From a virus, in the IMG/VR virus record IMGVR_UViG_3300020419_001178, positions 64,001-128,000 of that record: a stretch of DNA of 64,000 nt. One strand, given 5' to 3'. The number at the start of each line of letters is the position of its first letter. Within the stretch, counting starts at the first letter, position 1. The position numbers and the translations under genes were made by a program. The notes under the pieces are model-generated. The model had not been told where the DNA came from. It searched no databases and was given only the letters and a program-made list of their open reading frames with translations. Below, piece after piece: positions 26,834 to 41,548 of the stretch.

Positions 26834-28608
26834 TTAAGATAAAAAGCCTTACAGTAAAAAACTTTATGAGTGTGGGTAATCAAACCCAAGCAGTTGACTT
26901 TGATAAACAACAATTAACACTAGTTCTAGGAGAGAATCTTGATCAGGGTGGTGATGACATGGGATCAAGGAACGGCACTGGTAAGACAACTATTATAAAT
27001 GCCTTAAGCTATGCTCTATACGGACTAGCACTCACTAATATAAGAAGAAACAATCTAATCAATAAGACTAATAATAAAGGAATGTTGGTTACATTAACTT
27101 TTGAGAAAGATGGCACTAGCTATAAAGTAGAAAGAGGACGTGGTCCTAACTTATTGAAGTTTTTTATCAATGACCAAGAACAAGAATTAGTAGATGAAAG
27201 CCAAGGTGACAGTAGAAAAACACAAGAAACAATAAATGAATTGTTAGGCATGAGTCATAATATGTTTAAGCACATACTTGCTTTAAACACATATACAGAG
27301 CCTTTTTTAAGTATGAAGGTAAATGATCAAAAAGATATAATTGAACAACTTCTTGGTATTACTATTCTATCTGAAAAAGCAGAAACACTGAAAGAGAAAA
27401 TAAAACAAACAAGAGATTCGATTACTGAAGAAAACGCAAATATAAATGCTAGACAACAAAGCAATGACAGAATAAAAGAAACCATCGACAGTCTTAAAAT
27501 AAAACAAAGTGCCTGGGAGAGTAATAAAAAGACAAATCTTAAAAAACTTGAAAAAGGTATATCTGAATTAGAACATCTTGATGTAGATAGCGAACTTGAT
27601 AAACATGAAAAATTACAATCGTGGGAAGAATTAAATACAAAAATTACTACATTGAGAAAAGAAACAGCAACTCTTGATTCGACACTCTTAAGGGCAAATA
27701 AGTCTGTAGACAAAGTTAAAAAGGATATAGAAGAACTTGACAATGCTGTTTGTTATGCGTGTGGTCAGGAGCTACAGGAAGATAAAGTCAAAGAGATTGA
27801 AAACAAAAAAGCCAAAGAGCTTGAAGATGCTGAGACATATCAAAAAGAAATAAATGATAAACTAATTGAAGTTAATACAGAGTTGACAAATATCGGAGAT
27901 ATAAACGGTAGGCCGGATACGTTTTATGAAACGATAAAAGAAGTATATGATCACAAACAAAATGTAGCACAATTAAAACAGGCATTAGAAAATAGTAATA
28001 ACGAAACTGATCCTTATCAGGAACAAATAGAAGATCTAACTAAAACTGGAATCCAAGAAGTTGATTGGACTACAATCAACGCACTCAATGATCTAAAAGA
28101 ACATCAAGAGTTCTTACTAAAACTGTTAACAAACAAAGATAGTTTTATACGTAAAAAGATCATAGATCAAAACTTGGCATACTTGAACAACAGGCTCACT
28201 CATTATCTTGATAAGCTAGGACTTCCACATCAGGTTGTATTTCAAAATGACTTGAATGTTGAAATTACACAGCTTGGACAAGATCTTGATTTCGACAATC
28301 TTTCCAGAGGCGAGCGTAATAGATTAATACTTGGTATGAGTTTTGCTTTCAGAGATGTCTGGGAGAGCTTGTATCAAAATATTAACCTACTGTTCATCGA
28401 CGAGCTTGTTGATTCAGGTATGGATACTAGTGGTGTAGAGAATAGTTTAGCAATACTTAAAAAGATGGGTAGAGAACGTCATAAAAACGTTTATCTAATA
28501 TCGCACAAAGACGAACTTGTTGGTAGAGTTACACACGTATTAAAAGTAATTAAGGAAAACGGCTTTACATCATATGAAAATGACGTGGAAATATTTAATG
28601 AAAGATGA
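26830..28608 (+). CDS. gp46: Recombination ATPase subunit (Rad50/SbcC-like)
   Basis: Walker A NGTGKTT, CYAC zinc hook, LSRGE signature, Walker B LLFIDE, ISH. Confidence 0.93.
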   Translation: MIKIKSLTVKNFMSVGNQTQAVDFDKQQLTLVLGENLDQGGDDMGSRNGTGKTTIINALSYALYGLALTNIRRNNLINKTNNKGMLVTLTFEKDGTSYKVERGRGPNLLKFFINDQEQELVDESQGDSRKTQETINELLGMSHNMFKHILALNTYTEPFLSMKVNDQKDIIEQLLGITILSEKAETLKEKIKQTRDSITEENANINARQQSNDRIKETIDSLKIKQSAWESNKKTNLKKLEKGISELEHLDVDSELDKHEKLQSWEELNTKITTLRKETATLDSTLLRANKSVDKVKKDIEELDNAVCYACGQELQEDKVKEIENKKAKELEDAETYQKEINDKLIEVNTELTNIGDINGRPDTFYETIKEVYDHKQNVAQLKQALENSNNETDPYQEQIEDLTKTGIQEVDWTTINALNDLKEHQEFLLKLLTNKDSFIRKKIIDQNLAYLNNRLTHYLDKLGLPHQVVFQNDLNVEITQLGQDLDFDNLSRGERNRLILGMSFAFRDVWESLYQNINLLFIDELVDSGMDTSGVENSLAILKKMGRERHKNVYLISHKDELVGRVTHVLKVIKENGFTSYENDVEIFNER

Positions 28609-29009
28609 TATTAGACAAGATTAAAAATCGTGGTGAAGAAATGGCTCCATTAGAAGGGCATGATAGATTACAGTATCTTATTGATATTGCTAGAGAAGTT
28701 CCTCCTTTAGGAGATGAAGATAAAATAGATGAAAATAAAATCAGAGGTTGTGCTAGTAATCTTTGGGTGCTAGGTAAAGTTAATAAAGATGGAACAATGT
28801 CATACAAACATGACGCAGATTCGTGGATAACAAAAGGAACTGCTAAAGTTTTAGTTGATTTGCTAGACGGTGAACATCGTAACGAAATAGCACAATTGAC
28901 TTTACAAAGTTTTGAAGGGTTAGGAATTAGAAATCTTTTAACAATGCAGAGACAAGTTGGTTTTGGCAGTTTAGTAGAACGTATGATAGGAATAGCAAAG
29001 AATGAATGA
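28605..29009 (+). CDS. sufE: SufE-family sulfur acceptor (Fe-S cluster assembly), auxiliary metabolic gene
   Basis: DRLQYLID...NKIRGCASNLW with the conserved Cys, DADSWITKG and LLTMQRQVGF (LSxxRxNG-like); 134 aa. Confidence 0.85.
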   Translation: MILDKIKNRGEEMAPLEGHDRLQYLIDIAREVPPLGDEDKIDENKIRGCASNLWVLGKVNKDGTMSYKHDADSWITKGTAKVLVDLLDGEHRNEIAQLTLQSFEGLGIRNLLTMQRQVGFGSLVERMIGIAKNE

Positions 29010-29207: not shown

Positions 29208-29215
29208 GGTAAGTA
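29208..29215 (+). promoter_or_regulatory. Variant late promoter GGTAAGTA, 5 nt before the GIY-YIG ATG
   Basis: TAAGTA-TCCAT-ATG has the same geometry as the TAAATA-N5-ATG sites at 17780 and 36283; no clear SD. Confidence 0.45.
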
Positions 29216-29220
29216 TCCAT

Positions 29221-29652
29221 ATGCTGTGGACTTATCAAGGTAAAGAAATTACAAAACTGCCAGAAGATATAGAAGGATTTGTATATCTAATTACAAATAA
29301 GACTAACAACAAAAAATATATAGGCAAAAAACTAGCCAAATTTAAGAAAACACGCCCACCACTCAAAGGCAAGAAGAACAAAAGACGAAGCAAAGTTGAA
29401 AGCGATTGGAAAGATTACTGGGGTTCCTCAGATCATCTTATCGCAGACGTACAACAACTAGGTGAAGAAAATTTTACTAGAGAAATATTATATCTATGTC
29501 AAACAAGAGGCTTAATGAGCTATTTAGAGGCTAAGGAACAATTTGACCGCAAAGTTCTGGAAACAGACGAATACTATAATGGTATTATCAATGTGCGGGT
29601 AGGTGGTTCAAAAATTCTTAAAGAACATTTATCAAAACTTAAGGCAATATAA
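29221..29652 (+). CDS. Stand-alone GIY-YIG endonuclease (143 aa) with a Lys/Arg-rich arm
   Basis: GFVYLITN....KKYIGKK, YWGSS, FTREIL, E-containing helix SYLEAKEQ and YYN; no C-terminal NUMOD/HTH domain. Confidence 0.85.
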   Translation: MLWTYQGKEITKLPEDIEGFVYLITNKTNNKKYIGKKLAKFKKTRPPLKGKKNKRRSKVESDWKDYWGSSDHLIADVQQLGEENFTREILYLCQTRGLMSYLEAKEQFDRKVLETDEYYNGIINVRVGGSKILKEHLSKLKAI

Positions 29653-30056
29653 GGACGCTGTTTGATCGGGAAAGCTCGATCCGCTTTGAGGACATGGACA
29701 CCCATGTTCAGAATCTAGCGAGTCCACTAAACTGTTGCTCCAGAAAACTCCACGCAAAGGAACGAAGCGGGAGATAGCGGAGAATCCGCGAAGCGGTTGC
29801 GTTAGCAAAACCGGTTACGCAGATTTTACGTGATGTCGACGTAGGTTGGGAAAGGTCAGAGCCCATGGAGCAAGTCAAATACCTACTTCCGATCTCGGCT
29901 GTGCGAACTCACATGAAGCTTGGGATGATGGGACCTCGTGTAAGGTTCCGTCTGACTGAAACAATCTACATGAAACGTAAGTGCTTCGCACTTAATTCAA
30001 GTAAAATAACAGGTGTTTGAGCGAAAGCGATAACACGAATGATCGTTAGATCATTC
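29653..30056 (+). ncRNA. Putative large structured ncRNA (family not identified) starting at the GIY-YIG stop codon
   Basis: ORF-free, roughly 50% GC in an AT-rich genome. Many stems contain G-U pairs, and there are three or more long-range complementarities (29735-42/29866-73, 29841-46/29881-86, 29855-60/29951-56). Confidence 0.7.
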
Positions 30057-30106: not shown

Positions 30107-30292
30107 TTAATGAAGGTCAGGATCACGGCCAAATCCAGGTTTCACGCTACTAACTTCTACGGGAATGACTTTGAATTCAAAATGTGGTTCTGTATCACGT
30201 TTTGTGTTTATGTAGTAGTTGACTTCTTCCTGTGAATTAAGTTCCTCAATAACGTTACCCGCAGGGTCAACTATCTGATATCTAGTAATCAT
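30107..30292 (-). CDS. Small hypothetical protein (61 aa), probably late
   Basis: ATTAAATA motif at 30299-30306, 6 nt before the ATG; fills the gap and converges on the structured element. Confidence 0.65.
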   Translation of the reverse strand: MITRYQIVDPAGNVIEELNSQEEVNYYINTKRDTEPHFEFKVIPVEVSSVKPGFGRDPDLH

Positions 30293-41326: not shown

Positions 41327-41548
41327 ATAAGCTAGAAACTTGTAGCTAGAGTTTTTAAATAGTGCAAGGAAGAGGCGTTTACCAGAGCGTCGAACTTGAC
41401 TAGTTAGGGGTGGTACCCAGGCTTGGTAGTAGAAATACGCTGAGTCACATCGCTCTCCCGAGCGGAACTAGGTTCCCTGGTTATCAGAATGGCATCTGTG
41501 GCGAGGGGTTGTAGGTATAACCGAGTCCTACCTATTATTGCTTATTTT
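41327..41548 (+). ncRNA. Structured ncRNA with its own promoter and terminator (possibly manA-motif-like; unverified)
   Basis: No ORF; multi-stem fold at 41361-41531 with loop-loop complementarities (ACCA 41381-84/UGGU 41411-14; GGUU 41471-74/AACC 41519-22). Confidence 0.75.

What the first reader, a model, noticed from the sequence alone, without database searches (positions are those of the whole stretch)
29208..30056. Minimal GIY-YIG nuclease fused transcriptionally to a ~400-nt pseudoknotted element: candidate RNA-associated nuclease system
Seen in sequence: starting at the nuclease stop is an ORF-free, GC-richer tract. Domain 1 is closed by GGACGCUG/UAGCGAGUCC (29653-29725) and holds hairpins GAUCGGG/CUCGAUC and GGACAUGG/CCAUGUUC. 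Long-range pairs are UUGCUCCA (29735-42)/UGGAGCAA (29866-73) crossing GUAGGU (29841-46)/ACCUAC (29881-86), GUCAGA (29855-60, in the loop of UGGG/CCCA)/UCUGAC (29951-56), and GAGAU/AUCUC. A 10-bp hairpin lies at 29927-52, and three terminal hairpins at 29978-30056. Frequent G-U pairs favour plus-strand RNA. The 143-aa protein has only the catalytic GIY-YIG domain plus a basic arm (KKLAKFKKTRPPLKGKKNKRRSK), without the DNA-binding domains Seg/I-TevI homing nucleases use. A late-type promoter precedes it. Inference: one late transcript yields a nuclease-RNA complex, by analogy with HEARO/OMEGA (IscB, TnpB) loci, or the element is a new large ribozyme-like RNA.
Basis: partly seen in the sequence, partly recalled or inferred. 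Interest (0 to 1): 0.85.

Follow-up and report, generated by a model that had tools for sequence, protein, structure and literature searches.

The report
Twin-box phage RNA behind nuclease gene
The gene-free stretch after a small GIY-YIG nuclease gene of this uncultured marine T4-like phage encodes a real, knotted, roughly 400-base RNA of a family missing from RNA databases. Nothing shows that it guides the nuclease, because each occurs without the other, and its job is unknown.

Summary
Window 29653-30056 (+) is a genuine structured non-coding RNA. It is ORF-free, richer in G+C than its flanks, and folds better than shuffles (z -3.95). Base-pair covariation is strong in 56 close relatives (score 0.287 vs 0.124 shuffled) and in 47 distant ones (46 of 48 pairs change on both sides). 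G-U pairs outnumber A-C cells 279 to 60, which places the RNA on the nuclease strand.

The GUCAGA/UCUGAC pseudoknot does not hold outside the closest relatives.

No Rfam 15 family, tmRNA or group I intron matches. The family is found only in uncultured aquatic T4-like phage contigs, more than 250 of them.

It usually lies directly behind a small nuclease gene. That gene is either this SegE-type GIY-YIG or, in other lineages, an unrelated PDDEXK_15 nuclease. The partners are separable. One contig has the RNA with its own promoter and no nuclease. Phage Melnitz and two cyanophages have the GIY-YIG gene and no RNA.

Two single-stranded 10-nt boxes stay identical to each other while varying between lineages. 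No partner for them was found.

The RNA-guided-nuclease reading is therefore not supported. Earlier follow-ups in this scan reached the same family on other genomes.

The parts
29208..29215 (+). GGTAAGTA box, 5 nt before the GIY-YIG start codon. Candidate late-type promoter or start signal.
   Evidence: (G)GTAAGTA-N5/6-ATG is present in most of the 28 upstream sequences printed, out of 106 unique ones collected. Only 4 of the 106 match a TATAAATA-like late-promoter pattern. PDDEXK loci carry ATAACTA in the same place. Function not shown.
29221..29652 (+). 143-aa stand-alone GIY-YIG nuclease gene (SegE type, PHROG 447).
   Evidence: Pfam PF19835 E 2.9e-36 over residues 3-123. phrog_447 E 4.6e-40. 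GIY, YIG, E and N motifs are at least 98% conserved in 118 unique homologues. Single copy in the 145.7-kb record.
29642..29652 (+). Conserved AGGCAA leader that overlaps the last codons of the nuclease ORF.
   Evidence: An (A/U)GGCA(A/C) motif is kept upstream of the first helix in GIY loci, in PDDEXK loci of the L188/L206/L212 type, and in the nuclease-less L167.
29653..30056 (+). Whole twin-box RNA, about 404 nt.
29653..29725 (+). 5' domain: P1 29653-56/29722-25, P2 29664-70/29675-81, P3 29682-85/29717-20, P3a 29690-97/29702-09.
   Evidence: All four helices covary in 59 unique sequences. Subclass A2 has a different, larger 5' domain.
29736..29742 (+). P4 5' strand (pseudoknot).
   Evidence: Pairs with 29866-72. 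The one-column-offset U29736-A29872 pair is weak (59.6% paired). 6 of 6 pairs of the main P4 helix (29737-42 with 29866-71) change on both sides.
29748..29773 (+). P5 hairpin with invariant loop GGAACGAAG.
   Evidence: helix 3. Invariant columns.
29777..29831 (+). P6 with a variable-length branched insert.
   Evidence: The base helix covaries, 3 of 3 pairs. The insert ranges from about 4 nt (a bare tetraloop) to about 70 nt between relatives.
29841..29886 (+). P7 (29841-46/29881-86), which encloses P8 (29847-50/29862-65) and the P4 3' strand (29866-72).
   Evidence: Nearly invariant in class A. All pairs covary in the wider family (helices 1-3).
29892..29926 (+). P9 hairpin. Its loop carries box 1, CUCACAUGAAG, at 29908-29918.
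29927..29952 (+). P10 hairpin GAUGGGACC/GGUUCCGUC.
   Evidence: 100% paired in class A. 7 of 9 pairs covary in the wider family.
29965..29975 (+). Box 2, UCUACAUGAAA, single-stranded between P10 and P11.
   Evidence: Its four variable positions match those of box 1 in about 40 distinct sequences. The highest mutual information of each box-1 position tested (x1-x3) is with its box-2 counterpart.
29980..29992 (+). P11 hairpin with UUCG loop.
30013..30036 (+). P12 hairpin: GUGUU/AACAC, tandem G.A, GC/GC, GAAA loop. The UGAGCGNNAGCGA core is conserved across the family.
30037..30056 (+). P13 terminal hairpin: variable sequence, conserved structure. Probable 3' end.
   Evidence: 8 of 8 pairs covary. 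A U-tract follows in some relatives but not in the window.
30107..30292 (-). Convergent 61-aa ORF that bounds the RNA. It leaves no room for a plus-strand 3' exon.
   Evidence: Its C-terminal coding sequence is conserved downstream of the RNA in many loci.

Best explanation
WHAT IT IS. The tract is the gene for a plus-strand, roughly 400-nt pseudoknotted non-coding RNA. It belongs to a large uncatalogued family, here called twin-box RNA, found in uncultured aquatic T4-like myophages.

WHERE IT SITS. It is the last element of the rightward gp47-gp46-...-small-nuclease gene string. It begins at, or a few bases inside, the end of the nuclease ORF and ends at the P13 hairpin.

HOW IT IS MADE (inferred). 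Most likely it is transcribed together with the nuclease gene, perhaps from the conserved GTAAGTA box, and then stands as a stable RNA. In at least one relative it has a promoter-like site of its own.

HOW IT WORKS (inferred). It acts in trans and on its own. A rigid scaffold (P4 x P7 pseudoknot, P5, P10, P12) displays two identical single-stranded 10-nt boxes. These boxes probably bind two copies of one partner: a dimeric protein, or a nucleic acid that carries the matching word twice. This step is not shown.

THE NUCLEASE. It is a habitual neighbour, not a subunit. It is a Seg-type free-standing GIY-YIG nuclease parked next to a highly conserved RNA gene, as T4 SegB sits in the tRNA cluster. 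Other lineages have a PDDEXK_15 nuclease in its place. I cannot decide between a selfish homing-type nuclease (about 55%) and the lineage's resident recombination nuclease (about 45%).
For: REAL RNA ON THE PLUS STRAND
- Class A, 56 sequences: 89.7% of cells paired against 80.0% shuffled; 34 pairs change on both sides; covariation 0.287 against 0.124 (0 of 500 shuffles reach it); slid controls 0.05-0.07.
- Wider family, 47 distinct sequences aligned to model R1: 90.2% paired against 62.5%; 46 of 48 pairs change on both sides; covariation 0.526 against 0.151.
- The 5' domain covaries in 59 sequences.
- G-U 279 against A-C 60 cells.

NEW AND PHAGE-SPECIFIC
- No Rfam 15 match in the window region at E up to 10, nor in 12 diverse loci at E up to 1.
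- ARAGORN finds no tRNA or tmRNA in the window.
- blastn with three subtype queries finds nothing in 50,697 phage records.
- Among 185,579 prokaryote genomes there are two hits, both phage-like contigs in one MAG.

HABITUAL LINKAGE
- The RNA follows the GIY gene in about 70 of 80 GIY-selected loci.
- Of 105 loci found through an RNA motif, 87 have the GIY gene just upstream. Nearly all the rest are cut by a contig end.

SEPARABLE PARTNERS
- L167 has the RNA behind TTGACA-17-CATTAT and no nuclease.
- L188 and at least 52 further loci have the RNA behind PDDEXK_15 and no GIY.
- GIY homologues lie without the RNA after the ribonucleotide reductase genes in Melnitz, and elsewhere in P-HM1, S-SRM01 and several contigs.
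- Model R1 finds nothing in the whole genomes of Melnitz and S-SRM01, and only a 10.8-bit match (E 0.065) in P-HM1, which I treat as chance.

TWIN BOXES
- Identical at four variable positions in about 40 distinct sequences.
- Mutual information 0.71, 0.91 and 0.60, in each case the top-ranked column.

PRECEDENT
- SegB is a free-standing GIY-YIG inserted between tRNA genes and targets the tRNA region. mobE sits between nrdB and nrdA (PMC2988022, read).
Against: - The linkage is very tight: hundreds of loci against one clear nuclease-less case, and that case is an 11-kb contig.
- Two unrelated nuclease families hold exactly the same position, with the ORF end touching or overlapping the first RNA helix.
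- Each nuclease is single-copy, and the two exclude each other in the four large records checked. None of those records, nor Melnitz, has an endonuclease VII gene.
- The GIY protein has no DNA-binding domain, so the source of its specificity is open.
- No transcript data exist. RNA ends, co-transcription and trans action are all inferred.
- No partner for the boxes was found.
Confidence: 0.6

Rival explanations
1. Nuclease-RNA ribonucleoprotein. The RNA binds the small nuclease, whether GIY-YIG or PDDEXK, and directs or gates its cutting. The twin boxes act as the specificity element.
For: - Near-universal adjacency on one strand, with ORF and RNA overlapping.
- Two unrelated single-copy nucleases swap in place in front of the same RNA.
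- The GIY protein lacks any DNA-binding domain.
- The boxes are the only lineage-variable single-stranded words on a conserved scaffold.
Against: - GIY homologues of 72-76% identity work in genomes or loci that lack the RNA: Melnitz (complete genome), P-HM1, S-SRM01.
- The RNA exists without a nuclease (L167).
- In 13 PDDEXK loci the RNA lies about 1 kb downstream, and in the three inspected an unrelated 261-344-aa ORF fills the gap.
- The boxes vary at only four positions with about ten variants, and 93 of 138 unique RNAs share one. That is far from guide-like diversity.
- The box variant does not follow the nuclease type.
Confidence: 0.1
2. Looser functional link. Both small nucleases are the lineage's resident recombination or junction-resolving enzymes at the end of the gp47/gp46 operon. 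The RNA works in the same DNA recombination or replication pathway without being a guide.
For: - PDDEXK_15 matches PHROG 244, 'RusA-like Holliday junction resolvase', and is annotated as a resolvase in jumbo phages.
- No endonuclease VII gene in five records, including complete Melnitz.
- GIY and PDDEXK_15 are single-copy and mutually exclusive.
- Position after gp46 is conserved.
Against: - The family labels are untested annotations.
- The endonuclease VII search was not checked on a genome known to hold the gene. Its only control hit, in Corynebacterium glutamicum, fell below the family cut-off.
- Melnitz keeps the GIY gene at the ribonucleotide reductase locus and has no RNA.
- Cyanophage homologues sit in unrelated contexts.
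- Nothing ties the RNA itself to DNA transactions.
Confidence: 0.15
3. Cis-acting 3' untranslated element of the nuclease mRNA: a terminator, stabiliser or expression control.
For: - Same strand, directly 3' of the ORF.
- Ends in hairpins at a convergent gene junction.
- T4 homing-endonuclease transcripts are known to be regulated by RNA structures and processing (PMC2988022).
Against: - About 400 nt with a conserved pseudoknotted core and invariant single-stranded loops is far more than a terminator needs.
- The RNA stands alone behind a promoter-like site in L167.
- It is the same RNA behind two unrelated genes, and in some loci a further ORF separates it from them.
Confidence: 0.05
4. DNA-level signal (origin or single-strand hairpins), or an unrecognised protein-coding region.
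For: Both strands fold better than shuffles (z -3.95 and -3.84). Another first-stage note proposed a ssDNA signal.
Against: - G-U 279 against A-C 60 is strand-specific and fits RNA.
- Relatives differ by insertions and deletions that are not multiples of three, and no ORF exceeds 58 aa.
- The pseudoknot and the long-range helices covary.
Confidence: 0.03

Closest known systems
T4 SegB (free-standing GIY-YIG) in the phage tRNA / stable-RNA gene cluster; mobE at nrdA/nrdB (PMC2988022)
   Same: A Seg-type GIY-YIG gene sits in a T4-like phage, in an intergenic spot next to highly conserved structured-RNA genes. Its own promoter-like signal lies just upstream. The Melnitz homologue lies at the ribonucleotide reductase locus, a classic endonuclease site.
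   Different: - The RNA here is not a tRNA.
- The protein is only the catalytic domain (143 aa), with no C-terminal DNA-binding part.
- It is nearly fixed rather than patchy in this lineage.
- Cleavage and homing were not tested.
OMEGA systems (IscB/HEARO, TnpB omega RNA)
   Same: A nuclease ORF and a structured RNA of more than 200 nt lie on one strand, with the RNA overlapping an ORF end.
   Different: - Different nuclease folds (GIY-YIG or PD-(D/E)XK, not RuvC/HNH).
- No transposon ends, and the position is syntenic.
- No hypervariable guide.
- Each partner is found without the other.
- No Rfam HEARO match.
Large ornate non-coding RNAs of unknown function that are often phage-borne (GOLLD, ROOL). 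That they are often phage-borne is from my own knowledge; both are in Rfam.
   Same: Large, intricately folded, found in phage DNA, no known function, conserved single-stranded loops.
   Different: - No sequence or structure match.
- Smaller, about 400-550 nt.
- Defined by twin co-varying boxes.
- Has a nuclease gene as its upstream neighbour.
Two-piece tmRNA of phage Melnitz and pelagimyophages (PMC9004378)
   Same: A pseudoknotted RNA of about 350-400 nt encoded by close relatives of this phage.
   Different: - ARAGORN and Rfam find no tmRNA here.
- No tRNA-like domain.
- In Melnitz the tmRNA is gene 86, at another locus, and Melnitz lacks the twin-box RNA.
Polynucleobacter-1 RNA motif (RF01718), named as closest by earlier follow-ups in this scan
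   Same: An aquatic metagenome RNA motif of unknown function.
   Different: Not reproduced here. Rfam gave no match to it in the window region at E up to 10, nor in 12 diverse family members at E up to 1. The paper only lists it in a table.

Membership tests
Structured non-coding RNA (generic) | Conserved base pairs maintained by compensatory changes, beyond controls | tested here: met
   covariation 0.287 against 0.124 and 0.526 against 0.151. 0 of 500 shuffles reach the observed values. Slid controls are 0.05-0.08.
Structured non-coding RNA (generic) | Strand-specific wobble pairs | tested here: met
   G-U 279 against A-C 60 cells.
Any Rfam 15 family (including HEARO, GOLLD, ROOL, group I intron, tmRNA, RNase P, Polynucleobacter-1) | Covariance-model match | tested here: not met
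   No hit in the region at E up to 10 except a chance 20-bit snoRNA hit on the minus strand. No hit at E up to 1 in 12 diverse loci.
OMEGA / HEARO-type RNA-guided nuclease | RNA and nuclease obligately linked | tested here: not met
   RNA without nuclease in L167. GIY without RNA in Melnitz, P-HM1 and S-SRM01.
OMEGA / HEARO-type RNA-guided nuclease | Hypervariable guide segment next to a conserved scaffold | tested here: not met
   The only variable single-stranded words are the twin boxes: four variable positions and about ten variants, one of which is shared by 93 of 138 unique RNAs.
OMEGA / HEARO-type RNA-guided nuclease | Mobile-element (transposon) context | tested here: not met
   The locus is syntenic after gp47/gp46 in most contigs.
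OMEGA / HEARO-type RNA-guided nuclease | RNA-dependent target cleavage | not testable with these tools
   Needs biochemistry.
Free-standing Seg-type homing endonuclease | GIY-YIG catalytic domain of Seg type with intact motifs | tested here: met
   PF19835 E 2.9e-36. Motifs at least 98% conserved in 118 homologues.
Free-standing Seg-type homing endonuclease | Intergenic position next to conserved genes, at different sites in related phages | tested here: met
   Before the RNA here; after the ribonucleotide reductase genes in Melnitz, L076 and L072; other sites in L077/L080, P-HM1 and S-SRM01.
Free-standing Seg-type homing endonuclease | C-terminal DNA-binding domain that gives site specificity | tested here: not met
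   143 aa, of which the Pfam domain covers 3-123. No other domain. The PHROG 447 profile is 148 positions long.
Free-standing Seg-type homing endonuclease | Site-specific double-strand cut and preferential inheritance | not testable with these tools
   The distance-matrix test was not decisive. Spearman correlations: GIY-RNA 0.45, GIY-gp46 0.21, RNA-gp46 0.32.
Group I intron carrying an endonuclease ORF | Interrupted host gene with exons on both sides | tested here: not met
   A conserved convergent minus-strand ORF follows the RNA. Only 18 nt lie between the upstream ORF and the GIY start.
tmRNA (one- or two-piece) | tRNA-like domain and tag reading frame | tested here: not met
   ARAGORN finds 0 genes in the window. 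No Rfam tmRNA hit.

The most novel reading that the evidence does not exclude
The RNA is the programmable half of a new phage ribonucleoprotein. A 400-nt scaffold shows two identical, co-evolving 10-nt boxes. These boxes recruit or aim a minimal nuclease (GIY-YIG in some lineages, PD-(D/E)XK in others) at nucleic acid that carries the matching word twice. It would be an RNA-directed nuclease unrelated to CRISPR or OMEGA.
Probability: 0.08. Interest if true: 0.95.

Novelty: new variant of a known kind. Interest (0 to 1): 0.62.

Why it matters
Large, intricately folded RNAs with no assigned function are rare, and several have turned out to do unexpected things.

This one is abundant in uncultured ocean and freshwater T4-like phages, with more than 250 contigs here. 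It is absent from Rfam and from all 50,697 phage records searched.

It has a feature I know from no other family: two single-stranded boxes that stay identical to each other while drifting between lineages. That points to a specific dimeric or repeated partner, so the question can be tested directly.

Its constant neighbourhood with one of two unrelated small nucleases is also a clean case. It can be used to ask whether free-standing nucleases colonise conserved RNA genes, or whether a new kind of nuclease-RNA partnership exists.

Tried and rejected
TMRNA. This was my first lead, because the nearest named phage, Melnitz, has a two-piece tmRNA. ARAGORN and Rfam were negative, and the Melnitz tmRNA is at another locus.

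GROUP I INTRON WITH ENDONUCLEASE ORF. There is no Rfam hit and there are no exons.

PROTEIN-CODING. A 51-aa ORF spans part of the tract, but relatives differ by non-triplet insertions and deletions.

POLYNUCLEOBACTER-1, a lead from earlier notes. No match.

PK2 (GUCAGA/UCUGAC). Rejected outside class A.

A CIS PARTNER FOR THE TWIN BOXES.
- No consistently placed complementary 6-mer within -230 to +450 nt of box 1.
- No complementary co-varying column in the 3' core.
- Palindrome, kink-turn / C-D-box, start-codon and 'codon plus stop' readings were considered by eye. None fits all box variants.

TARGET-SITE-DUPLICATION-LIKE REPEATS around the nuclease cassette. TAGGC occurs at both ends of the GIY gene but not upstream of the PDDEXK genes.

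HOMING TEST BY DISTANCE CORRELATION. Weak correlations everywhere, not decisive.

ALIGNMENT AND FOLDING.
- RNAalifold on MAFFT alignments of all classes together gave no usable global fold.
- A simple pair scan was too noisy.
- MAFFT Q-INS-i is not installed.
- The twin-box alignment across all classes was too gappy for mutual information.

LITERATURE. Searches for a prior description found none.
Full report
THE LOCUS
The window is part of a 145,741-bp IMG/VR virus record. It comes from a marine T4-like myophage. The nearest named relatives, by the GIY protein, are the Methylophilales phages Melnitz, at 76% identity.

On the plus strand the gene order is:
- gp46-like, 592 aa;
- a SufE-domain ORF;
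- a 66-aa ORF;
- the 143-aa GIY-YIG ORF (29221-29652);
- a tract with no ORF above 58 aa, up to about 30056.

A conserved 61-aa ORF on the minus strand then converges on it.

The tract has G+C of 0.45-0.51 against about 0.33 around it. It folds to -135.9 kcal/mol, z -3.95.

IS IT CONSERVED AND LINKED TO THE NUCLEASE?
A protein-based scan of IMG/VR returned 80 loci with GIY homologues of 74-88% identity. An iterated nhmmer search finds the tract directly downstream in about 70 of them. Most of the others are cut by contig ends.

A reverse scan started from a 16-nt RNA word. It gave 105 loci with the element. Of these, 87 have the GIY gene immediately upstream on the same strand, and nearly all the rest are truncated. 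Most loci share the gp47/gp46 neighbourhood.

STRUCTURE
The sequences fall into three groups:
- class A1, to which the window belongs;
- class A2, with a different and larger 5' domain;
- class B, very divergent.

I mapped the helices from window coordinates onto a 56-sequence MAFFT alignment of class A. The result was 89.7% of cells paired against 80.0% in shuffles. 34 pairs change on both sides. The covariation score is 0.287 against 0.124, which no shuffle out of 500 reached, and slid controls gave 0.05-0.07.

The long-range helix P4 (29736-42 with 29866-72) has 6 of 6 pairs with double changes. It crosses P7 (29841-46 with 29881-86), so that pseudoknot is real.

P7, P8 and P10 are almost invariant in class A. 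I therefore built covariance model R1 for the 3' core, P7 to P13. It recovers full-length matches in 59 of 98 further loci. On that alignment 46 of 48 pairs change on both sides, and covariation is 0.526 against 0.151. This alignment is fitted to the model, so it leans towards the structure.

The 5' domain helices P1, P2, P3 and P3a covary in 59 unique sequences. G-U cells outnumber A-C cells 279 to 60, so the RNA is read from the nuclease strand.

WHAT DID NOT HOLD
- GUCAGA/UCUGAC. In relatives the P8 loop changes with no compensation while UCUGAC stays fixed. Across 40 family members the best complementarity equals that of shuffles, 4.4 against 4.3 nt.
- GAGAU/AUCUC. It is pairable in 95% of class-A cells but only through one-sided changes, and it competes with P5 and P9. 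In class B the segment after P7 pairs instead with the P6 hairpin loop. By eye this pairing covaries clearly: CUUAACA/UGUUAAG, CUAGUC/GACUAG, CUAUUC/GAAUAG, CUUGUAU/AUACAAG. I did not score it with the counting tool.
- Domain 1. It is closed by two short helices rather than one long stem.

WHAT IS IT NOT?
- Rfam 15 has no match.
- ARAGORN sees no tRNA or tmRNA.
- The Melnitz tmRNA is a different gene at a different place.
- There is no interrupted gene, so it is not an intron.
- blastn with three subtype queries finds nothing in 50,697 phage records.
- A scan of 185,579 prokaryote genomes finds two hits. Both are phage-like contigs binned into one MAG.

THE NUCLEASE RELATIONSHIP
Three observations separate the partners.

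1. L167 carries a complete RNA with no nuclease. The RNA follows a stem-loop and a TTGACA-17-CATTAT site.

2. L188 carries the RNA directly behind a 169-aa PDDEXK_15 nuclease (PF24608, E 1.1e-23).
   - A scan with that protein returned 80 loci at 53-100% identity.
   - nhmmer finds the RNA in 57 of them, and model R1 in 52. None has a GIY gene.
   - In 13 of them the RNA lies about 1 kb downstream, and in the three inspected an unannotatable ORF of 261-344 aa fills the gap.

3. GIY homologues occur without the RNA.
   - In Melnitz the gene follows the ribonucleotide reductase genes.
   - In P-HM1, S-SRM01 and several contigs it lies elsewhere.
   - Model R1 finds nothing in the complete genomes of Melnitz and S-SRM01. 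In P-HM1 it finds only a 10.8-bit match (E 0.065), which I treat as chance.

The GIY protein belongs to PHROG 447, a family of roughly 148-aa proteins mislabelled 'NAD synthetase'. Its catalytic motifs are almost invariant.

At genome level the pattern is as follows.
- The window's record has one SegE-type GIY and no PDDEXK_15.
- Three large PDDEXK records show the reverse.
- None of those four records, nor Melnitz, has an endonuclease VII gene. That search was not checked on a genome known to hold the gene, so it is weaker than the other two.

Two readings of the adjacency therefore remain open.
- A free-standing homing-type nuclease parked beside a very conserved RNA gene. T4 SegB is inserted between tRNA genes in this way, and mobE lies between nrdB and nrdA (PMC2988022).
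- A resident recombination nuclease at the end of the gp47/gp46 string.

Distance matrices for GIY, RNA and gp46 correlate only weakly (0.45, 0.21, 0.32) and do not decide between them. Neither reading needs the RNA to guide the enzyme.

TWIN BOXES
Two single-stranded words stand out:
- box 1, in the P9 loop (29908-18, CUCACAUGAAG);
- box 2, between P10 and P11 (29965-75, UCUACAUGAAA).

Both follow the pattern YYY-x1x2-AU-x3-A-x4. In an alignment made by the model, which does not require the boxes to be alike, x1 to x4 are the same in both boxes in about 40 distinct sequences. Variants include AC, AG, GG, GC and GA, and there are two or three single exceptions. For each box-1 position tested (x1-x3), the highest mutual information of any column is with its box-2 counterpart: 0.71, 0.91 and 0.60.

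I found no complementary segment within the RNA or its flanks. Identity kept through change argues for one partner that reads both boxes. This is inference, and the partner is unknown.

VERDICT
- The RNA is real and new.
- The guide-RNA interpretation is not supported.
- Earlier follow-ups in this scan reached the same family on other genomes, with the same conclusions. I saw those notes only after my own analysis of the boxes and the nuclease swap.
- Their 'closest known' Polynucleobacter-1 was not reproduced here.

Noticed in passing
window 41334-41541 (+): manA RNA (Rfam RF01745, 60.3 bits, above the gathering score). It is the only Rfam family in the window.
   Followed up: no
window 28605-29009 (+): SufE-domain ORF (PF02657, E 1.4e-28) between gp46 and the 66-aa ORF. 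It is present in some syntenic contigs and absent in others.
   Followed up: no
window 29208-29215; L206-L285 about 10 nt before the PDDEXK start: A conserved GTAAGTA box lies 5-6 nt before the GIY start codon. An ATAACTA box lies in the same place before PDDEXK genes. Together they read NTAA(G/C)TA. This may be this phage group's late-type promoter or a start signal for nearly leaderless mRNAs.
   Followed up: partly
G000, G002-G004 and Melnitz (whole records): Each record checked has either one SegE-type GIY or one PDDEXK_15 gene, never both. None has an endonuclease VII (PF02945) gene. The small nucleases may be alternative junction-resolving enzymes in these lineages. The PF02945 search had no positive control.
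   Followed up: partly
L079:3441-4040 and L245/L265/L267 downstream of the nuclease: More divergent, G+C-rich versions of the RNA. They are recognised only in part (L079 by model R1; L265 and L267 mainly by the P12 core). The family is therefore broader than sampled.
   Followed up: partly
L201, L202 (PBPT01000016.1 and PBPT01000082.1): Two contigs of 335 kb and 153 kb in a Candidatus Neomarinimicrobiota MAG carry gp46, GIY, the RNA and the gp26-like gene. They are probably phage contigs binned into a bacterial MAG.
   Followed up: partly
window 29777-29831 and relatives (alignment A1, columns 525-599): The P6 insert varies from a bare tetraloop hairpin to about 70 nt. In many relatives it holds repeated ACGGUNUAGCGU units.
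   Followed up: no
L232:3013-4047, L257:3004-3789, L240:3004-3966: ORFs of 261-344 aa with no Pfam or PHROG match lie between the PDDEXK gene and the RNA in a subset of contigs.
   Followed up: partly
L081:3441-3590, L076, L063 (downstream of the GIY gene at the ribonucleotide reductase locus): A conserved TATAAATA late-promoter-like box is followed by GUGCGAAUA-CCCCCC-AUAGGAG. This is a short conserved leader of the next gene in Melnitz-type phages.
   Followed up: no
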